A stretch of 64,000 bases of DNA. It comes from an uncultured Clostridia bacterium (GTDB taxonomy: Bacteria > Bacillota > Clostridia > Christensenellales > UBA1242). Below are positions 962 to 45,284 of the stretch, piece after piece (the stretch's first letter is position 1; each line of letters begins with the position of its first letter). The notes beneath the pieces are model-generated. The model worked only from the letters and a program-made list of their open reading frames with translations. It had not been told where the DNA came from and did no database searches. The translations under genes and the position numbers were made by a program. Location of the stretch: assembly GCA_944362965.1 (NCBI GenBank), contig CALVTR010000006.1, forward strand, positions 27,855 to 91,854, read 5' to 3'.

Positions 962-1134
962 AAGCCACACCGCTGACGCGGGAGTGAAGAGTGAAAAATG
1001 AAGAGTGAAAAGAGAGTAAGGACGGAATTTATAAAACGGAACAGAAAAACTAGGCGTTATGGACACGCAGGACGATAGTGAGCGGATAATTCGTCCGCTC
1101 TTTTAAATTTTTACAATAAGCCTTAGGTATAGTA

Positions 1135-1407: not shown

Positions 1408-1435
1408 TTGATAAACATTGCGGGGGGGGTATAAT
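1408..1435 (+). promoter_or_regulatory. Sigma-A-type promoter with a G8 homopolymer in the spacer (candidate phase-variable promoter) for ORF 1526-2095
   Basis: TTGATA (1408-1413), 16-nt spacer AACATTGCGGGGGGGG (G8 at 1422-1429), TATAAT (1430-1435). AGGAG RBS precedes the ATG at 1526. Confidence 0.55.
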
Positions 1436-29233: not shown

Positions 29234-29351
29234 TAAAAATAAAAAAGGAAACTCTTAGGGTTTCCTTTTTTAATGCAAAATAAAAAATAATATGTTAAAT
29301 TTAAAGAAATTATTAGAAAATATTAAAAATATTTCTATATTTAAAAATTTA

Positions 29352-29762
29352 TTAAATCTTAACAGAATATTCTAAAATTTCCTTTAATCTAGTATTGTCA
29401 TTTTTTAAATAAAGATAGCCTATAAGCACTTCAAAAGCGGTTGCGTATGAGTAGTCAGATTGGCTTGCGTTTTTTGCCGAGTGCTTAGGCTTTGCATTTC
29501 GACCGCGACGGACAATCTCACTTTCTTCTTCGCTTAGGGTAGGGAGAAGTTCTTTCAAAACTCTAGCTTGCGATTGAGCTTTACAATATTTTGCAGCTTC
29601 AGTATGATAGTTTTCCATTTTCCCGTCATACATTTCAAGGCAATACTCTCGCACAAAAAGGGTATGCACGCTGTCGCCTATAAAGGCAAGCGGCAGCAGA
29701 TTAGTTTTTAGTAACTTTTCAAGCAGTTCACTATTTTTTGTAGTGTGATTTATAACATCCAT
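29352..29762 (-). CDS. mrnC: Mini-ribonuclease 3
   Basis: LPLAFIGDSVHTLFVREY...RRGRNAKPKHSAKNAS...ATAFEVLIGYLYL. Confidence 0.85.
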   Translation of the reverse strand: MDVINHTTKNSELLEKLLKTNLLPLAFIGDSVHTLFVREYCLEMYDGKMENYHTEAAKYCKAQSQARVLKELLPTLSEEESEIVRRGRNAKPKHSAKNASQSDYSYATAFEVLIGYLYLKNDNTRLKEILEYSVKI

Positions 29763-29941
29763 AAAAATCCTTTAAAAATATGATTATATTCGGTTTGGAA
29801 GAAATGTAGGCGTTTATATATTAGTGATGCAAACTAAGTTTGCCGTCAAACATTTTGCTTATAAAGTTCACCTCGTTGTAGAAAACCAAATGTTAGAAAG
29901 TAAATATAGACATTAATAGTTTGATACTAGCAAGTAATAGT

Positions 29942-30134
29942 TACCCCTTGTGGGTCCAAATTACGACGAAATTTACAGAGTAAATTTCTAGGGGGTGGAA
30001 AGGGAGTTGGGAGGAAAACCAAAATTTTAGCGGTTAGCCGTTAGGCGTGCCCGCGTTCTCCGCAAGGAGTTGGGCAAAAGTTGCAGGCTTAAACCCTGAA
30101 ACTTTTCTCCAAAAAATTTTGGTGTTACCCCAAG
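29942..30134 (-). repeat. Structured GC-rich element immediately 3' of ychF (homolog of 42634-42805)
   Basis: TACCCCTTGTGGGTCC (29942-57) is the reverse complement of 42790-42805. Hairpin GAAATTTAC-aga-GTAAATTTC at 29968-88. Also contains GGGGTGGAAAGGGAGTTGGGAGG. Ends 3 nt from the ychF stop. Confidence 0.65.
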
Positions 30135-30136
30135 AT

Positions 30137-31231
30137 TTATACATTGAAGCGGAACAGCATCACATCTCCATCTTGCACAACATAGTCCTTGCCTTCCATG
30201 CGGACTTTACCTTTTTCTTTAGCCTTTACAAATGAGCCCGCTTCCACAAGGTCGTTATAAGATACAACTTCAGCTTTGATAAAGCCTTTTTCAAAGTCGG
30301 TGTGAATTTTTCCCGCAGCTTGTGGAGCTTTTGTTCCTTTTTTAATAGTCCAAGCTCTTACCTCTTTCTCTCCAGCGGTTAAGAATGACATCAGCCCAAG
30401 CAAATCATAACTAGTTGCAACAAGTTTTTCAAGCCCACTTTCTTTTATACCAAGTTCTTCTTTAAAAATCTCTCGCTCGTCAGGTTCAAGCCCTGTCAAT
30501 TCTTCTTCAATTTTGGCAGAAAGCACAATAACCTTCGCGCCTTCACTTTCAGCATGTTTCTTTACTTGCTTAACAAAGTCATTGTCTTCTTTTCCCACAT
30601 CATCTTCACTAATGTTTGCAACGTAAATAACAGGTTTAGCGGTCAGAAGTTGCAAGTTTTTCATAATTTTTTGTTCTTCTTCGCCGTCTATTTCCACACT
30701 TCTAACTGGCTTATTATTTTCAAGGGCAGTATTTATTCTGTCAAGAAGGTTTACTGTTGCAATCAAACTTTTGTCACCAGTTTTAACAAGTTTAGCATCT
30801 TTTTCAAGAAGTTTGCTTACTTGTTCAAGGTCAGCAAGTGCAAGTTCAAGATTGATTATTTCAATGTCGCGTAGCGGGTCAATAGAACCATTAACATGAA
30901 TTATCTTTTCATTTTCAAAACACCTTACAACATGAACAATGGCATCAACTTCACGAATATGACTTAAAAATTTATTGCCAAGTCCTTCACCTTTGCTTGC
31001 TCCTGCAACAAGTCCTGCAATATCAACAAATTCAATGGAAGCGGGTGTGATTTTTTGTGTATTATAAAGTTTTCCAAGCACTTGCAATCTCTCGTCAGGC
31101 ACATCAACAATCCCTATATTTGGCTCAATAGTGCAGAAAGGGTAGTTCGCACTTTCCGCCCCAGCATTTGTAATTGCGTTAAATAGAGTGCTTTTTCCAA
31201 CATTAGGAAGTCCAACAACACCAATTTTCAT
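30137..31231 (-). CDS. ychF: Ribosome-binding ATPase YchF
   Basis: [21 protein letters not shown]...[15 protein letters not shown] prefer the start at the internal Met (31231). Confidence 0.93.
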
Positions 31232-31497
31232 ATTTTTTATCCTTTTAATAATTAAATTTTTCTCTTGCATATTATAACATTTAATTTATTATTAGTAAAG
31301 TTAAATAATAAAAAATATATAAATTCTATTTTTTATTAAAATTAAGGATATTTTTTAATAATTTTGCAATAAATATCACTTTATTTAATTAAATTTAATA
31401 AATTTTATTTTAAATATAACAATTTATATAACCTTCAAATAATTAAAAAAGAGTTTAATATATAACCCTAAAGTTAATGTTAAACTCTTTTTTTTAA

Positions 31498-39902: not shown

Positions 39903-42629
39903 ATGGGACTTTTTGGTAATGAAAACAAATCACAGTTAAAGAAATTAAGAAAAATAGCAGACAAGGTTATTGCACTTGAAGATAAATATAAATCGTATTC
40001 AAACGAACAGCTTCGTGCCTGCACTGATGAATTTAAAAATAGATATAAAACAGGAGAGAGCTTAAATGACCTTCTTCCAGAAGCTTATGCGGTTGTTAGA
40101 GAAGCGGCAGCAAGAGTGCTTAATATGAGGCATTTCTATGTGCAAATTCTTGGTGGCATTGCACTTCATCAAGGCAGAATTGCAGAAATGGCAACAGGTG
40201 AAGGTAAAACTCTTGTTGCAACACTTCCTGCATACTTAAATGCAATCACAGGAAAAGGCGTTCATGTTGTCACAGTCAATGAATATTTGGCAAAACGTGA
40301 CGCTGATTGGATGGGAAAGGTGTATAAGTTTTTAGGGCTTTCTGTCGGTGTTTCACTAAACGGGCAGAACAACGAGCAGAAAAAGAAGGCATATCTTGCT
40401 GATATCACATACACCACAAACAACGAACTTGGCTTTGACTATCTAAGAGACAACATGGCAAGGTCAAAGAACGAACGTGTGCAAAGGGGACTTAACTTTG
40501 CAATCGTCGATGAAGTTGATAGTATCTTGATTGATGAAGCAAGAACACCACTTATCATAAGCGGACGTGGAAGCAAGTCAACCGACGGCTATATGGTTGC
40601 ACAAAAGTTTGTAAAAACTTTAAAACAAGATAGTGATGTTGATATAGATATAAAAACAAAGCAAATCAACCTTACAGATAAAGGTATCAGAAAGGCTGAA
40701 AGTTTCTATCATATAGAGAATTTGTCAGATATTGAAAATATAGAGCTAAGCCACTATATCAACAATGCCTTAAGGGCAAACTTTATCATGCATAGAGATG
40801 AAAACTATATCGTCAAAGACGGCGAAGTAATCATTGTAGATGAGTTCACAGGTCGTCTCTCTCCAGGCAGACGTTTCAGCTCAGGGCTTCACCAAGCCAT
40901 TGAAGCAAAGGAAGGGGTTGATATTCGTGATGAAAACCAAACTTTTGCAACAATAACCTTCCAAAATTTCTTCCGTCTATATAAAAAGCTATCAGGTATG
41001 ACAGGAACAGCAAAGACAGAAGAAGGTGAGTTTAGAACAATTTATAATCTAGACGTTGTCACAATCCCACCAAACAGACCAAAACAAAGAATAGATTACC
41101 CAGACAAGATGTATGTAACAGAAAAGGGTAAGATTGCCGCCATTATTGAAGAGATAAAGGAATGTGTAGAAAGTGGTCAGCCTGTGCTTGTCGGCACAAT
41201 CAATATTGATAAATCAGAACAGCTTTCAAACGCACTTCGTCATGCAGGAATAAAGCATCAAGTATTGAATGCTAAAAATAATGAAAAAGAAAGTGAAATC
41301 GTCGCTCAAGCGGGCAGAAAGGGTGCAGTAACAATCGCAACCAACATGGCAGGTCGTGGAACTGATATCTTGCTTGGTGGTAACCCAGAGTTTATGGCAA
41401 CAAAGGAAATGAGAGATAAGGGCTTCACCGAAGAAGAAATCTTGTATGCCACAGCTTTTAACTATGTTGATGATGAAGCGTTAAACAAGGCAAGAGAAGA
41501 ATATAACAAGTTCTATACTAAATATAAAGAGATAACAGATAAAGAAAAACAAGAAGTCATCTCACTTGGCGGACTTAAGATTGTGGGCACAGAGCGTCAC
41601 GAATCCCGCCGTATAGACAATCAGCTTCGTGGTCGTTCTGGTCGTCAAGGGGATCCAGGCTCAAGCATATTCTTCCTTTCACTTGATGATGATTTGTTCA
41701 AGAGATTTGCAACTGACAAACTTAGAAAACTGCTTGCATTTTTCAAAGTTGACGATTCAACACCAATTCAATTAAAAGCCATTTCAAAGCAAATTGAAGC
41801 ATCTCAAAGAAAGATAGAACTTCAAAATTTCAGCATAAGAAAAACCGTTTTGCAGTTTGACGACGTTATGAACAAGCAAAGAGAGATTATCTATAAAGAA
41901 CGCAACGAAGTGCTTGACGGGCAACCTGTTCATGACCAGATTATGAAGATGTTCCCAGAAGTTGTCACAAAGAGCGTCACAAAGATTATTTCAGATGACC
42001 GCCCATATTATGAATGGGATTTAGAAGCACTTAATAAAGAACTTGAAAACGGACTTCTTGAAAAGGATAGCAACACTATCACAGAAGAGTTCATTGAAGG
42101 CTGTGACGTCAATGACGTTATAGAAAAAGTGCTTGATATAATCTATAAGAAGTATGATGAGCGTCAAAAAGAAGTAACAGCAATCGGCGTCAATTTTGAA
42201 GATATAGAACGTAATGTTCTTTTAAGAATGGTTGACATAAATTGGATGAGCCAAATAGAGAATATGCAGATAATGAAAGATGAAATTCTTTCAAGACAAT
42301 TTGGTCAACAAGATCCAGTCATGGCGTATAAGAAGGAAGGCTTTGATATGTTCGACTCAATGATTGACAAAATCAAAGAGACCACATGTAAAATTCTGTT
42401 GAATGCAAGAATACAAGCGCGTCCTGTTACTCCAGCACCAGAACCTGCAAAGATTATCTTCACAGGCAAACAACTCACACCAGAAGAGAGAGCCGCTCAA
42501 AAGCAAAAGCAGAAACTTCAAGTTCAAAAGACAGTATATAATGATAAGCCAAAAGCGGGCAGGAACGACCCATGCCCATGCGGAAGTGGCAAAAAATACA
42601 AAAACTGCTGCTGGGATAAAGACCACTAA
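39903..42629 (+). CDS. secA: Preprotein translocase ATPase SecA
   Basis: 908 aa: MATGEGKTLVATLPAYLNA, DEVDSILIDEARTPLIISG, TNMAGRGTDI, C-terminal zinc motif CPCGSGKKYKNCC. Confidence 0.97.
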   Translation: MGLFGNENKSQLKKLRKIADKVIALEDKYKSYSNEQLRACTDEFKNRYKTGESLNDLLPEAYAVVREAAARVLNMRHFYVQILGGIALHQGRIAEMATGEGKTLVATLPAYLNAITGKGVHVVTVNEYLAKRDADWMGKVYKFLGLSVGVSLNGQNNEQKKKAYLADITYTTNNELGFDYLRDNMARSKNERVQRGLNFAIVDEVDSILIDEARTPLIISGRGSKSTDGYMVAQKFVKTLKQDSDVDIDIKTKQINLTDKGIRKAESFYHIENLSDIENIELSHYINNALRANFIMHRDENYIVKDGEVIIVDEFTGRLSPGRRFSSGLHQAIEAKEGVDIRDENQTFATITFQNFFRLYKKLSGMTGTAKTEEGEFRTIYNLDVVTIPPNRPKQRIDYPDKMYVTEKGKIAAIIEEIKECVESGQPVLVGTINIDKSEQLSNALRHAGIKHQVLNAKNNEKESEIVAQAGRKGAVTIATNMAGRGTDILLGGNPEFMATKEMRDKGFTEEEILYATAFNYVDDEALNKAREEYNKFYTKYKEITDKEKQEVISLGGLKIVGTERHESRRIDNQLRGRSGRQGDPGSSIFFLSLDDDLFKRFATDKLRKLLAFFKVDDSTPIQLKAISKQIEASQRKIELQNFSIRKTVLQFDDVMNKQREIIYKERNEVLDGQPVHDQIMKMFPEVVTKSVTKIISDDRPYYEWDLEALNKELENGLLEKDSNTITEEFIEGCDVNDVIEKVLDIIYKKYDERQKEVTAIGVNFEDIERNVLLRMVDINWMSQIENMQIMKDEILSRQFGQQDPVMAYKKEGFDMFDSMIDKIKETTCKILLNARIQARPVTPAPEPAKIIFTGKQLTPEERAAQKQKQKLQVQKTVYNDKPKAGRNDPCPCGSGKKYKNCCWDKDH

Positions 42630-42633
42630 TAAC

Positions 42634-42805
42634 TGGTGAGACACCAAAGCCATAACGCTGACACGCTGAAAAATTCAGCTAACAGCTATGGCACGCAATT
42701 TTAACGATAGGACATTAAAATTGCTTTCGGTTTCTCTCCCAAGCCTCTTCCACCCCAGACAAAAATTTTCTAAATTTTTGTCTTAATAAGGACCCACAAG
42801 GGGTA
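42634..42805 (+). repeat. Structured GC-rich element immediately 3' of secA (homolog of 29942-30134)
   Basis: Starts 5 nt after the secA stop. Hairpins GCTGAA-aaa-TTCAGC, GCAATTTTA...TAAAATTGC and GACAAAAATTT-tct-AAATTTTTGTC (42758-82). Also CTCTCCCAAGCCTCTTCCACCCC and GGACCCACAAGGGGTA (42790-805). Confidence 0.65.
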
Positions 42806-42948
42806 GATATAAGTGAAAAATGAAAAATGAAGAGTGAAAAGTTTATTTAGCTCCACAAGGGGGGTGGAATAATTGTAGTTTATGTTCTCATGGAACAAGT
42901 AAACTCGGTATTATAGATGCACTAGACGATAGAAAGTGGCTAAGCCAC
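42806..42948 (+). repeat. Mosaic repeat extension: purine-rich block plus a GACGATAG-hairpin module
   Basis: 42821-42841 TGAAAAATGAAGAGTGAAAAG is identical to 992-1012. GACGATAG at 42925-32, then GTGGC-taa-GCCAC (42936-48), which is the inverted match of 63224-63236. Confidence 0.6.
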
Positions 42949-43121
42949 CAAGATAATATCAAAATCTTTTACAAAAAATTCTCGAGCTTTAAAGTCTTGA
43001 GAATTTTTTGTAGTGGCAATCGGTATTCTTCCGCCTTTAAATTGCTATTTTTAATGTTTTGCGTATTGACAAATTGAAAAATATTTGATAGTATTATCAT
43101 GGTTGAAAAAAGGAGAAGAAT

Positions 43122-43355
43122 ATGAAAGTAAATGAATTGATAAGCTCATATAAAAAGGATAATAAAAAGAGCCCTATTGAAAGAGATTGGTTTAAGTCTT
43201 TAAAAGGGTGTAATTTAAATATAAGTAATGAAGAACTATGCGAAATACTAAAGGCTAAAACTGGTTTTAATTGGAATTATAAAGTTTGCTTAGATGATAA
43301 ATTTGGACCAGGACCAGATAATCATCCTATGCCATGTGCTATGACCTTATTTTAA
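43122..43355 (+). CDS. Hypothetical protein (77 aa)
   Basis: AGGAGAAG RBS and an upstream TTGACA-17-TAGTAT promoter. Overlaps the next ORF by 22 nt in another frame. Confidence 0.4.
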   Translation: MKVNELISSYKKDNKKSPIERDWFKSLKGCNLNISNEELCEILKAKTGFNWNYKVCLDDKFGPGPDNHPMPCAMTLF

Positions 43356-43684: not shown

Positions 43685-44171
43685 TAGTTATTTACTAATA
43701 TTTATGTCGGCTGTTAAAAACCACAATATAAGAATAGATTTTAAAGATGACAACAAAAAATCTCAGGGCTTAGTCAATTAATTTTGATACTAGCGGTATA
43801 AAGGACGCTTTACAACAAAAGATATGGTGTCTTTTATTTTTTCTTGACGGAAAAATAAAACGAATATTTCTGATGTTGTCATAGGTTGTTATTATAATTT
43901 TTTATTTGTAAATTTTTAAACATTCATTTTAACCTTGACAACAAAGAATATTCGCTTATACTAGAATAAGAGAAATAAAAAACAAAAGAGTTGTGTGCGT
44001 ATGATTTTGCCAACACCAACTTTTTCGCTTTAATCTACATTAATTTATGTGTGCTTGTTAGCGAGCCGACTTGTATCAGGACAAGCACATATCTAAATGC
44101 TAAAATAAATATTTTTATAATTTTTTTAAAAATTTGATACAAATTAGAAAATTTTATGGTATTATATAAAT

Positions 44172-44906
44172 ATGAATAAAAGCGCATATGATATAGATAT
44201 TTTTTTGAAAGATTATGTTGATAAGAATAGCAAATTTTCTTTTGACAGAGCACTTGCATTAAAAGAAAAATTCAAATATAAAAAAATAACATCAATATTA
44301 GATTTAGCCTGTGGAACTGGCTTGTTTTTAAATGAAATGGTTAAAAGTTTTGATTTGGAATATGGTGTCGGGGTAGATTTATCAGCAAACATGATAAAGT
44401 ATGCAAAAAAGCACAATCAATCATCAAAACTGAAGTTTGTTAAAGGTGATATGACCAATTTTTCACTTGAAAAGACCTTTGATTTAATCACTTGCAACTA
44501 TGATGCAATCAATCATTTAATTATGTTTGAAGACTGGCAAAAGATGTTTAATAATGTATATTCTCATCTAAAAATCGGCGGGGTTTTTACTTTTGATTAC
44601 AACACGCTTTTAAAACTAAAAAATTTTAGTAGGACTTCTTATTATGAGTATGAAGAATATAATTGCGTATGGCATAACACAAACGAAAATGATAGGTTTA
44701 ATTTCGATTTTTCCTATTATATCAAACAAAAAAATGGGGAGTATAAACTGATAAAATCAAGTCAAATTGAATCAACATTTCCTTATAAATTGATTGCAAC
44801 AACACTTAAACAAATGGGCTTTAAACACATTAAATTTTGCAATAAAGACTTCAAAAAATGTAATCCAAACAAAGTGTTTAGATGTTTTGTTATTTGTGAA
44901 AAATAA
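44172..44906 (+). CDS. Class I SAM-dependent methyltransferase
   Basis: ILDLACGTGLF (motif I), GVDLSANMI, KGDMTNF, FDLITCNYDAINHL. Confidence 0.8.
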   Translation: MNKSAYDIDIFLKDYVDKNSKFSFDRALALKEKFKYKKITSILDLACGTGLFLNEMVKSFDLEYGVGVDLSANMIKYAKKHNQSSKLKFVKGDMTNFSLEKTFDLITCNYDAINHLIMFEDWQKMFNNVYSHLKIGGVFTFDYNTLLKLKNFSRTSYYEYEEYNCVWHNTNENDRFNFDFSYYIKQKNGEYKLIKSSQIESTFPYKLIATTLKQMGFKHIKFCNKDFKKCNPNKVFRCFVICEK

Positions 44907-45284
44907 CGAATTTTAGCAAATAATAAATGCTAGGTATTTTGGCTAGAGTTTTATAAACTTGATATTATAAAGAATCTTAATATTAAGGATCTTCTTGCTA
45001 GTTTAAAGTTTATAGTTTTTTAGTCAAACATTTTTCAAACTAGTACAAAAAATAGTGGGACAAATTGTTTCCACTATCTTTTTTTGCTAGTTTCAAAGAT
45101 TACCAGCCTTGCCTTGAGATTTTTTTAATTGTTCTTTATAAAAATTGTGTTTTTTGTTTTGAAAAAGATTTTTTTTATGATACTATTAGAGTAGGAATGT
45201 TTATTTTTCAAATAAAAAGGCGATAAAAAGCTTTAAAAATCTATGCAGAAACATTCATTTTAGAATTTAAGGAGCTTTTAAAGC

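What the first reader, a model, noticed from the sequence alone, without database searches (positions are those of the whole stretch)
29942..30134. Homologous ~170-190-nt structured elements directly after the ychF and secA stop codons, with a compensatory hairpin
29942-30134 (minus-strand sense) and 42634-42805 (plus-strand sense) each start within 5 nt of a stop codon and share the same orientation relative to the upstream gene.

Shared blocks:
- GGTG..CACCAAA at the 5' end.
- A pyrimidine block: CTCCCAA..CC.T.TCCACCCC.
- An exact 16-mer, GGACCCACAAGGGGTA, at the 3' end.

Between the last two blocks both have a 3-nt-loop hairpin of different sequence: GAAATTTAC/GTAAATTTC versus GACAAAAATTT/AAATTTTTGTC. 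The central ~90 nt differ but are hairpin-rich in both. Conserved ends plus a structure-preserving substitution suggest a functional 3'-UTR RNA element or a structured mobile repeat.
Basis: partly seen in the sequence, partly recalled or inferred. Interest (0 to 1): 0.6.

Follow-up and report, generated by a model that had tools for sequence, protein, structure and literature searches.

The report
Modular hairpin repeat units behind stop codons
The two look-alike stretches after ychF and secA are real, but they are two copies of a many-copy, Lego-like family of hairpin repeats found in a few uncultured chicken-gut Clostridia, are transcribed as the tails of the upstream messages, and are not a dedicated regulatory RNA shared by those two genes.

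Summary
In detail: both elements, the shared blocks, the exact 16-mer and the two different TCT-loop hairpins are present and far beyond chance. The elements are composite units of a dispersed modular repeat family. Each unit has a head (TGGGGTAACACC-like), a multi-hairpin "cloverleaf" body closed by a head-to-tail helix, a C-rich block, a TCT-loop hairpin and a small CCC-RCAA-GGG hairpin.

- The tail module occurs at about 15-27 times single-copy depth in four chicken-gut metagenomes.
- A third locus exists in the same species, and tandem arrays exist in relatives.
- Sister species (YchF 90-91%, SecA 87% identical) lack the elements at both sites.
- Closer relatives have type A and type B units swapped or stacked directly after the same stop codons.
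- Hairpins are kept by strictly Watson-Crick double changes.
- One unit is 174/176 identical between species whose secA third codon positions are only 69% identical. The identity starts at the stop codon, which points to recent exchange.
- Metatranscriptome contigs show co-transcription at mRNA-level depth. secA RNA coverage stops near the tail.

There is no match in Rfam, plasmids or phages. Closest analogues are the pneumococcal BOX and enterobacterial REP/BIME elements.

The parts
30121..30133 (-). Head of the ychF unit (type B): TTGGGGTAACACC, starting 3 nt after the ychF stop (30137-30139). TTGGG pairs with CCCAA of the C-rich block, and ACC... starts the closing helix.
   Evidence: the same head follows stop codons in relatives L020, L025, L026 and L028
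30018..30123 (-). Body of the ychF unit. A closing helix (ACCAAAATTTT / AAAATTTTGGT) surrounds three hairpins: hp1 30070-30112, hp2 30058-30069 and hp3 30030-30054. hp3 carries the conserved internal loop GCGG-GCAC...TAA-CCGC. Together they form a 'cloverleaf' four-way junction.
   Evidence: fold; coordinates; hp1/hp2 covariation (94% of cells paired, 9 pairs changed on both sides, 0/500 shuffles)
29991..30018 (-). C-rich block TTTTCCTCCCAACTCCCTTTCCACCCCC
   Evidence: part of the multi-copy segment in metagenomes
29968..29988 (-). TCT-loop hairpin GAAATTTAC-TCT-GTAAATTTC
29942..29957 (-). Terminal 16-mer GGACCCACAAGGGGTA. It forms a small hairpin CCC-ACAA-GGG and ends in GGGGTAAC, a direct repeat of the head.
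   Evidence: variants CCCGCAAGGG, CCCATGAAGGG and AGTC-TTAC-CGGCT in relatives
42633..42645 (+). Head of the secA unit (type A): CTGGTGAGACACC, starting 4 nt after the secA stop (42627-42629; a second TAA lies at 42630-42632)
42642..42731 (+). Body of the secA unit. A closing helix (CACCAAAGC / GCTTTCGGT) surrounds two hairpins. hpA1 (42649-42692) has the conserved internal loop GCTG-ACAC...TAA-CAGC. hpA2 is at 42695-42724. This part is single-copy in metagenomes.
   Evidence: fold; coordinates; depth
42732..42756 (+). C-rich block TTCTCTCCCAAGCCTCTTCCACCCC
42757..42783 (+). TCT-loop hairpin AGACAAAAATTT-TCT-AAATTTTTGTCT. It is the most abundant module, at about 15-27 times single-copy depth.
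   Evidence: an identical copy lies at a third locus, L017 6354-6380
42790..42805 (+). Terminal 16-mer GGACCCACAAGGGGTA. The only two differences from the L026 copy of this unit lie here (42796, 42805).
42813..42841 (+). Purine-rich GTGAARAG-type repeat that follows the tail. The same kind of block follows unit arrays in L025, L026 and L027, and also occurs at window 984-1002 and in L017.
42971..43011 (+). Terminator-like hairpin with a T run (ACAAAAAATTCTCGAG...CTTGAGAATTTTTTGT). It lies downstream of the unit, so the unit sits between the stop codon and this hairpin.
   Evidence: read by eye; coordinates; not listed by the consensus scan; no RNA contig covers it in X16 or X29

Best explanation
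The two elements are composite units of a modular, dispersed family of palindromic intergenic repeats. The family works like pneumococcal BOX elements or enterobacterial BIMEs, and is confined to a narrow clade of uncultured chicken-gut Clostridia.

**Unit architecture**
- A head (TGGGGTAACACC-like).
- A body of two or three hairpins inside a closing helix.
- A C-rich block, whose first half pairs back to the head.
- A hairpin with a TCT loop.
- A small CCC-RCAA-GGG hairpin that ends in GGGGTRA.

**Shown here**
- Modules are shared, shuffled, inserted and deleted between copies.
- Units stack head to tail directly behind a stop codon.
- Units differ between close relatives and are missing from sister species.
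- Hairpin pairing is maintained while stem sequences drift.
- The copies after ychF and secA are transcribed as part of the upstream mRNA. The secA RNA signal ends around the tail of the unit.

**Inferred**
- The family spreads and turns over by recombination between shared modules, and possibly by an unidentified single-strand-DNA enzyme.
- Its effect on the host is that of a structured 3' block on transcripts (3'-end formation or protection against 3'-exonucleases), not a gene-specific regulatory RNA.
For: **Family and copy number**
- A third locus in the same species (L017/L013) has a 57-nt tail identical to the secA copy.
- A different Clostridia MAG (L001) carries at least 2 full and 2 degenerate units in tandem.
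- In four DNA metagenomes the TCT-hairpin/tail region has 15-27 times the depth of the flanking single-copy DNA: 734/39.8, 367/13.5, 212/13.9 and 118.5/5.9. The head has 2-4 times. The body of the secA unit is single-copy.
- Contigs break inside the element and run on into many different flanks (loose ends).

**Gain, loss and swapping**
- The ychF-mrnC spacer of L021, L023 and L024 (YchF 90-91% identical) has no element and an ordinary terminator hairpin. The secA spacer of L029 (87%) has none either. None of the modules searched for occurs (apart from one loose 3-mismatch C-block match in L024) in 21-23 kb of each of those loci.
- In L020, L025, L026, L027 and L028, units start 0-5 nt after the same stop codons. 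Type A and type B are exchanged, extra hairpins are inserted, and 2-3 units are stacked.
- An RNA contig of X30 joins the type A body to the type B TCT hairpin.

**Structure is maintained**
- The TCT hairpin has a 9-bp core that is 100% paired in 8 distinct versions. Five of its 9 pairs changed on both sides, and 0/500 shuffles reach this.
- hp1/hp2: 94% of cells are paired, 9 pairs changed on both sides, none changed on one side only, and 0/500 shuffles reach this.

**Exchange rather than uniform constraint**
- Unit A is 174/176 identical between the window and L026. secA third codon positions are 69% identical and the upstream spacer 72%.
- The identical tract begins exactly at the stop codon.
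- In the same pair of genomes, the ychF unit is only 57% identical overall.

**Transcription**
- Metatranscriptome X16 contigs run from ychF through the whole spacer at depth 4-5.6.
- X16 contigs run from secA (depth 11.1) into the unit up to 42777. Nothing covers 42838-43105, and a new contig starts at 43117. DNA run X3 covers the gap without interruption. X29 shows the same gap.

**Catalogue searches**
- No Rfam match.
- No match in plasmids, phages or viral contigs.
Against: - No transposase or recombinase was identified. Mobility is therefore inferred from distribution only.
- Within about 20 kb of five related genomes, the units sit only behind secA and ychF (plus one extra site in L028). 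This looks more like long-term residence at two sites than free transposition.
- Units are far more conserved than synonymous sites in two comparisons: 98.9% and 95.8% against about 70%. Purifying selection on a function could also explain this.
- Starting 0-5 nt after a stop codon at both loci in every carrier is compatible with a translation-coupled role.
- Copy numbers come from summed contig depths of whole communities, not from one genome.
- RNA evidence comes from unstranded assembled contigs of two samples at low depth.
Confidence: 0.6

Rival explanations
1. A selected cis-acting 3'-UTR RNA module. The structure forms directly behind the stop codon, where it defines or protects the mRNA 3' end, loads Rho on the C-rich block, or makes termination and mRNA decay sensitive to the terminating ribosome. 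REP elements within about 15 nt of E. coli stop codons are reported to act this way (Liang, Rudd and Deutscher 2015; recalled from memory, not retrievable here).
For: - Both copies are sense to, and 3-4 nt behind, the upstream stop codon. So are the units in five related genomes.
- They lie upstream of the terminator-like hairpin after secA. They replace the ordinary terminator that sister species have after ychF.
- secA RNA coverage ends near the tail in X16.
- Units are much better conserved than synonymous sites.
- Pairing is maintained.
- The sense strand carries a C-rich, G-poor block in a 34% G+C genome.
- The GC-clamped CCCRCAAAATC hairpins carry G-T, and never A-C, on the sense strand in the copies seen.
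Against: - Tail and head copies also lie upstream of, or antisense to, genes. Examples are L017 beside the start of an LRR gene, L028 1026-1240 upstream of a 297-aa gene, and heads abutting the ribosome-binding site of divergent genes.
- The closest relative (L025, secA 94% DNA identity) has a different unit at the same site. Sister species do without one.
- Stem changes are all Watson-Crick to Watson-Crick, with no one-sided G-U intermediates.
- The antisense strand folds as well or better in 8 of 10 units.
- RNA depth of the repeat relative to flanks (about 30 times) matches DNA depth (18-27 times), so there is no accumulation.
- After ychF, transcription reads through.
Confidence: 0.22
2. 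Non-coding 'cassettes' moved by a dedicated site-specific or single-strand-DNA system. This could be a REP/RAYT-like or IS200/IS605-like HUH enzyme, or a recombinase acting on the GGGGTRA repeat found at both ends of each unit. Such a system would insert units next to TAA or next to an existing unit, and so build head-to-tail arrays.
For: - Every unit begins and ends with (T/A)(T/A)GGGGT(A/G)A. The ychF copy has a perfect 8-nt direct repeat GGGGTAAC at both ends.
- Head-to-tail arrays of 2-4 units occur.
- The near-identity between species begins exactly at the stop codon.
- Left flanks are nearly always TAA, TA or AAC.
- Hairpins with conserved loops and internal loops but free stems are what HUH enzymes read (established knowledge of IS608 TnpA and RAYTs).
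Against: - No such enzyme gene was seen next to any copy (gene tables).
- There is no target-site duplication: the first unit has no GGGGT on its left.
- There are no terminal inverted repeats.
- The two window copies point in opposite directions 12.5 kb apart. They therefore follow transcription, not replication, unlike IS200/IS605 insertions.
- The body of unit A is single-copy.
- The arrangements can be explained by unequal recombination between shared tails.
Confidence: 0.12
3. Random fragments of one degraded gene or insertion sequence.
For: Only that the two copies share blocks separated by unrelated sequence.
Against: - All six frames of both units are closed (1-4 stops each, longest open stretch 38 codons).
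- The unrelated parts are themselves perfect hairpins.
- The shared blocks recur in fixed order in many copies.
- No similarity to plasmid or phage DNA was found.
Confidence: 0.02

Closest known systems
BOX elements of Streptococcus pneumoniae (with RUP and SPRITE), Croucher et al. 2011, PMC3049150
   Same: - Both are small interspersed repeats of a Firmicute, built from modules (boxA, a variable number of boxB, boxC) with extensive secondary structure.
- Both are confined to a few closely related species and are intergenic.
[quoted passage not shown]
- Both are judged mainly parasitic, with slow turnover (abstract read).
   Different: - No sequence relation is known or was tested, and the host class is different.
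- Here the body is a closed three- or four-way junction with conserved loops and free stems.
- The ends are direct repeats (GGGGTRA).
- Units stack in head-to-tail arrays directly behind stop codons.
REP / BIME elements of Enterobacteria and Pseudomonas, and REPINs with RAYT transposases (established knowledge; RNase R and PNPase act on REP-containing mRNAs, PMC12320835)
   Same: - Both are mosaics of palindromic units and other short motifs between genes, mostly inside transcripts after stop codons.
- Pairing is kept by compensating changes.
- REP elements are known to act as 3' blocks to exonucleases.
- Their distribution is lineage-specific.
   Different: - REPs are single 20-40-nt GC-rich imperfect palindromes headed by GTAG, and are linked to a RAYT gene.
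- Here the hairpins are AT-rich, of several types, and arranged as junctions.
- No GTAG signature is present, and no RAYT could be looked for.
'Cloverleaf' four-way-junction repeat family noted repeatedly in this scan in uncultured gut Clostridia (AI notes e1-4909427, e1-3237057, e1-5082758, e1-2313546)
   Same: - The central part of the ychF unit is a closing stem around exactly three hairpins.
- It is strictly Watson-Crick, in the same genome and clade.
- It shares hairpin types with conserved loops.
   Different: - The present units add a conserved head, a C-rich block, a TCT-loop hairpin and a terminal mini-hairpin.
- The secA unit has two inner hairpins, not three.
- The units form arrays behind stop codons.
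Integron attC sites and cassette arrays (established knowledge)
   Same: - Both are imperfect palindromes whose structure, not sequence, is conserved.
- Both lie directly after stop codons.
- Both are arranged in same-orientation arrays.
- Both act (for attC) as folded single strands.
   Different: - The upstream genes here (secA, ychF) are syntenic core genes, not cassettes.
- No RYYYAAC/GTTRRRY core sites are present, and no integrase is nearby.
- Integrons are essentially unknown in Clostridia.

Membership tests
Any Rfam 15 RNA family | Covariance-model score at or above the family's gathering threshold | tested here: not met
   Only two tRNAs are found in the window at the gathering threshold. 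Permissive scans of both regions give only weak chance matches, the best being Ysr49 at 24 bits against a threshold of 95. Nothing is found in L001, L013 or L017.
BOX elements (pneumococcus) | Homology to the boxA, boxB and boxC consensus sequences | not tested
   No BOX sequence was available to compare. The family is reported only from S. pneumoniae, S. mitis and S. suis (PMC3049150).
BOX elements (pneumococcus) | Modular build: conserved end modules around a variable number of internal hairpin modules, transcribed with neighbours | tested here: met
   Head and tail are conserved. There are 2-5 inner hairpins of several types. RNA contigs cover the units.
REP / BIME | Short GC-rich imperfect palindrome with a conserved GTAG-type head | tested here: not met
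   The hairpins are mostly AT-rich with conserved loops (TCT, GTTTAAG) or internal loops (RCAC/TAA). GTAG appears only once, after the secA 16-mer.
REP / BIME | A RAYT (Y1 transposase) gene in the genome | not testable with these tools
No such gene appears in the gene tables of the loci fetched.
MITE | Terminal inverted repeats and a target-site duplication | tested here: not met
   The ends are direct repeats (TTGGGGTAAC ... AAGGGGTAAC). The left flank of first units is the stop codon, with no duplicated GGGGT.
Intrinsic (Rho-independent) terminator | GC-rich stem followed directly by a T run | tested here: not met
   The consensus scan finds none in 29300-30300, and none on the sense strand inside the secA unit. 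The T-run hairpin after secA lies 165 nt beyond the unit.
Integron attC | R''/R' core sites (RYYYAAC ... GTTRRRY) and an intI gene or cassette context | tested here: not met
   Read directly from the sequence, the unit ends are GGGGTRA. The upstream genes are syntenic secA and ychF.
3'-UTR-derived stable small RNA | A discrete transcript accumulating above the parent mRNA | tested here: inconclusive
   Locus-specific RNA contigs have the same depth as the flanking gene: 4-5.6 at ychF and 11.1 at secA. A 178-nt contig spanning 42627-42804 in X27 is a weak hint only. The data are unstranded assembled contigs.

The most novel reading that the evidence does not exclude
The units are non-coding 'cassettes' of a so far undescribed structure-reading mobility system in Clostridia. 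A single-strand-DNA enzyme or site-specific recombinase would recognise the conserved loops and the GGGGTRA ends. It would insert units precisely at stop codons or next to existing units, and move them between species. This would explain three things: the head-to-tail arrays, the tract of 165 identical bases that begins exactly at the secA stop codon between genomes with about 31% synonymous divergence, and the strictly Watson-Crick maintenance of every stem.
Probability: 0.12. Interest if true: 0.75.

Novelty: new variant of a known kind. Interest (0 to 1): 0.38.

Why it matters
The result adds a well-dissected example of modular structured repeats to Clostridia, a class where such elements are barely described. 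It shows that the 'cloverleaf' repeats of these gut bacteria are parts of larger units with defined heads and tails that stack behind stop codons and end up in mRNA 3' ends.

If the units shape 3'-end formation or stability of essential messages such as secA, they are a hidden layer of gene expression in uncultured gut bacteria.

If they are moved by a dedicated enzyme, that enzyme would be a new structure-specific DNA tool.

In practice, these repeats break metagenome assemblies, and they can be mistaken for regulatory RNAs.

Tried and rejected
**Searches that did not help**
- Pattern scan TCCACCCC-N20-50-GGACCCACAAGGGG:
  - In species-representative genomes it found one real relative (L001) plus two GC-rich chance hits.
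  - In metagenome contigs it found one further locus of the same species (L013/L017). Three of the other seven hits were inspected and are GC-rich chance matches (L011, L012, L019), and the remaining four (L014-L016, L018) were not inspected.
  - In viral contigs it found nothing.
- Same-species contigs were identical, so they gave no covariation.

**Structural ideas rejected**
- A long-range pair between ACCCC of the C-rich block and the 3' GGGGT. It appears in the minimum-energy fold, but copies with CGCCG or CACAC in place of CCCC keep the tail.
- RNA strand preference from folding energy. The antisense strand is as stable or more stable in 8 of 10 units.
- Target-site duplication or terminal inverted repeats.

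**Functional ideas rejected**
- A small ORF behind the tail. AAGGGGT plus 7-9 nt plus ATGACG occurs in L001 and L028, but the reading frames are 2-13 codons long and not conserved. The window copies have no ATG.
- Promoter or intrinsic terminator inside the units.
- Anti-Shine-Dalgarno mimicry by CCTCC. The downstream ribosome-binding sites are 180-490 nt away, and nothing supports pairing.
- The TCT-loop hairpin seen in sister species between the giant gene and ychF is an ordinary terminator, not a family member.
- Degraded gene: all frames are closed.

Full report
**1. The observation**

Both regions read as described.
- The ychF ORF ends at 30137-30139 on the minus strand, and the element starts 3 nt later with TTGGGGTAACACC (30133-30121).
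- secA ends at 42627-42629, followed by a second TAA, and the element starts at 42633 with CTGGTGAGACACC.
- The pairwise alignment shows a shared head, a shared pyrimidine block and a shared 3' end.
- The 16-mer GGACCCACAAGGGGTA occurs exactly twice in the window, even with two mismatches allowed, against 0.00 expected.
- TTCCACCCC occurs three times against 0.07 expected.
- The two hairpins between the last two blocks have different stems but the same loop, TCT. They are the only TCT-loop hairpins with at least 8 pairs in 64 kb, against 0.06 expected.
- Both elements fold far better than shuffled sequence, with z = -4.15 and -6.36. They share one plan: the head pairs with the first half of the pyrimidine block, and a second helix (ACCAAAATTTT/AAAATTTTGGT, or CACCAAAGC/GCTTTCGGT) closes a junction of three or two hairpins. 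A 3' domain with the TCT hairpin follows.

**2. Source and catalogue searches**

- The window is part of a 201-kb scaffold of an uncultured, 34% G+C Clostridia bacterium. Runs that hold it are mostly chicken-gut metagenomes.
- No Rfam family matches at the gathering threshold or at permissive thresholds.
- Plasmid, phage and viral collections hold nothing similar.
Everything about other copies therefore comes from pattern scans, from contigs that encode relatives of YchF and SecA, and from public runs.

**3. It is a family**

*Other loci*
- The pattern 'pyrimidine block, gap, 16-mer' found a third locus in the same species (L017/L013). Its 57-nt tail is identical to the secA copy, but its upstream part is different and holds an extra hairpin, CGCAAAGTC-TCT-GACTTTGTG.
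- In another Clostridia MAG (L001), the pattern found a tandem array of at least two complete and two degenerate units.

*Copy number from public metagenomes*
- When public metagenomes are laid on the elements, contigs break inside them and short high-depth contigs appear.
- In four DNA runs, the TCT-hairpin region of the secA unit reaches 734, 367, 212 and 118.5, against 39.8, 13.5, 13.9 and 5.9 for the flanking single-copy DNA. That is about 15-27 times.
- The corresponding part of the ychF unit behaves the same way.
- The head is at 2-4 times. The body of the secA unit is single-copy.
- The loose ends show many different neighbours for the same module.
- These depths sum over whole communities and are only rough copy numbers.

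**4. Orthologous sites in relatives**

YchF and SecA have many relatives at 85-98% identity, and gene order is conserved: secA, two giant genes, ychF, mrnC.

*Species without the element*
- In L021, L023 and L024 (YchF 90-91%), the ychF-mrnC spacer is shorter. It has no element and carries an ordinary terminator hairpin.
- In L029 (SecA 87%), the secA spacer has none.
- None of the modules searched for occurs, apart from one loose 3-mismatch C-block match in L024, in the 21-23 kb read from each of these genomes.

*Species with the element*
- In L020/L026 (one genome), L025, L027 and L028, units begin 0-5 nt after the same two stop codons, but they differ.
- L026 has the secA-type unit (A) followed by a ychF-type unit (B).
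- L025, the closest relative (secA DNA 94% identical), has B followed by a second B-like unit and no A.
- L027 has A with two extra hairpins inserted.
- L028 has three units after secA, a head after ychF, and a reversed tail array upstream of an extra gene.
- The window's arrangement (A joined directly to the purine-rich flank that follows B in L026) is what a deletion between two tails would leave.
- An RNA contig of run X30 joins the A body to the B-type TCT hairpin. The shared sequence at that point is far shorter than the assembler's word, so this is a real variant.

**5. Structure is maintained, by Watson-Crick changes only**

- Eight distinct TCT hairpins keep a 9-bp core paired in every copy. 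Five of those nine pairs changed on both sides. No shuffle of 500 reaches the observed covariation, and sliding the partner by one column destroys it.
- In hairpins 1 and 2 of five type B units, 94% of cells are paired. Nine pairs changed on both sides and none changed on one side only.
- Loops (TCT, GTTTAAG) and an internal loop (GCNG-RCAC ... TAA-CNGC) stay constant while stems drift.
- The absence of one-sided G-U steps, and the fact that the antisense strand folds as well or better in 8 of 10 units, mean the covariation does not identify RNA as the selected molecule. A palindromic DNA element whose arms are kept alike would look the same.
- One hint of strand asymmetry is that the CCCRCAAAATC hairpins carry G-T, never A-C, on the unit's sense strand. 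These copies may share that feature by descent.

**6. Rates of change**

- Between the window and L026, secA is 88% identical (third codon positions 69%) and the spacer upstream of secA is 72% identical.
- Unit A is 174/176 identical in the same comparison. The last coding differences lie at 42626 and 42630, and the next difference is at 42796.
- L025 and L026 share a B-like unit at 95.8%, against 70% at third positions.
- In the same pair of genomes as the first comparison, the ychF unit is only about 57% identical overall and 74% in its first 87 nt, with stems rebuilt.
- Unit A in L027 has diverged about as much as coding DNA.

Uniform purifying selection on a functional RNA does not fit this mixture. 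Recent exchange or replacement of whole units does. The sharp left edge at the stop codon is the most intriguing detail and remains unexplained.

**7. RNA**

*ychF*
- In metatranscriptome X16, contigs that match the locus exactly run from ychF through the unit and the rest of the spacer into mrnC, at depth 4-5.6. Transcription there reads through, and nothing accumulates.

*secA*
- An 869-nt contig (depth 11.1) runs from the gene into the unit and stops at 42777, where the repeat begins.
- No RNA contig covers 42838-43105.
- A new contig starts at 43117, just downstream of a good promoter match at 43066-43094.
- DNA run X3 covers the whole stretch in one contig. A second sample, X29, shows the same gap at low depth.
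- The secA message therefore appears to end at or shortly after the tail of the unit, before the T-run hairpin at 42971-43011.

*Limits*
- This rests on unstranded assembled contigs and is weak to moderate evidence.
- The summed RNA depth of the tail module relative to secA (about 30 times) is close to the DNA ratio (18-27 times), so the family as a whole is not over-represented in RNA.

**8. Contexts other than 3' UTRs**

- The L017 copy lies beside the start of a minus-strand LRR gene, pointing away from it.
- The L028 tail array lies upstream of a 297-aa gene.
- Two further head copies in metagenomes abut the ribosome-binding site and ATG of a gene on the other strand.
- The two window copies point in opposite directions 12.5 kb apart, each sense to its upstream gene.

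**9. Interpretation**

- The best-supported reading is a modular mosaic repeat family that works like BOX elements or BIMEs. It has conserved end modules and a variable set of hairpin modules, is lineage-restricted and intergenic, is co-transcribed, and turns over by recombination between shared modules.
- Whether a dedicated enzyme moves it could not be tested.
- On transcripts it most likely acts as a structured 3' block.
- It is not a member of BOX, REP/BIME, MITE, attC or any Rfam family by their defining features (see membership table).
- The reading as a selected, translation-coupled 3'-UTR device remains possible (about 0.2). The stop-codon proximity and the RNA end at the tail favour it. 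The other contexts, the swapping between near relatives and the absence from sister species count against it.

**10. Relation to earlier notes of this scan**

- After my own analysis had begun, the scan's notes showed that the three-hairpin 'cloverleaf' core has been reported many times in this and related genomes.
- I confirmed here that the ychF body is such a core.
- I add that it is embedded in a larger unit with head, C-rich block, TCT hairpin and terminal hairpin, that units form arrays behind stop codons, and that one unit shows cross-species near-identity bounded by the stop codon.

Noticed in passing
window 43334-43335: A one-base deletion (a missing T) splits a 187-aa gene into ORFs of 77 and 116 aa. 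The gene is intact in L006, L009 and L010 and in a contig of DNA run X3, so this is a strain-level frameshift or an assembly error.
   Followed up: partly
window about 43771-45000: Compared with L006 and with contigs of X3, X25 and X26 (which continue GCCTTGAGATTTTTTTAATTG), the window has an insertion that begins inside a terminator hairpin (TCTCAGGGCTT|). The insertion carries a 244-aa methyltransferase gene (44172-44906).
   Followed up: partly
window 42813-42841 and 984-1002; L017 7033-7150; L025 4891-4947: Purine-rich GTGAARAG-type repeats form another recurrent module. It often sits directly behind unit arrays and, elsewhere, next to CCGCTGACGCG.
   Followed up: no
window 29825-29851 (minus): The block GTTTGACGGCAAACTTAGTTTGCATCA in the ychF-mrnC spacer recurs in L017 (7092-7106), L020 (11361-11375) and L028 (2500-2514). 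It is a further small repeat module.
   Followed up: no
window 42851-42868: The hairpin CTCCAC-AAGGGG-GGTGGA shares CCACAAGGGG with the 16-mer and contains the exact complement of TTCCACCCC. It may be a remnant of a deleted unit's tail.
   Followed up: no
window 31231-31270: The 377-aa YchF ORF is probably 13 codons too long. Nearly all relatives are 364 aa and start at MKIGVVG, which puts the start at 31231.
   Followed up: partly
L001 200-215, 448-465, 640-660, 765-785; L028 12960-12975 and 13360-13378: In two other genomes, each unit's terminal hairpin is followed by A(T/C)A(C/T)TTT(T)ATGACG. This second 'head' type looks like a ribosome-binding site plus ATG but opens only 2-13-codon, non-conserved frames.
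   Followed up: partly
run X3, flank of a tail copy (loose end before window 42748): One tail copy is preceded by CTTGGGGGGGGAAAACTCCCT, which contains a G8 run. Poly-G promoter tracts are a noted feature of this genome (window 1422-1429).
   Followed up: no
run X27, contig on window 42627-42804: A 178-nt contig spans exactly from the secA stop codon to the end of the 16-mer. Its right end is explained by the repeat, but its left end at the stop codon may be chance or a processing site.
   Followed up: no
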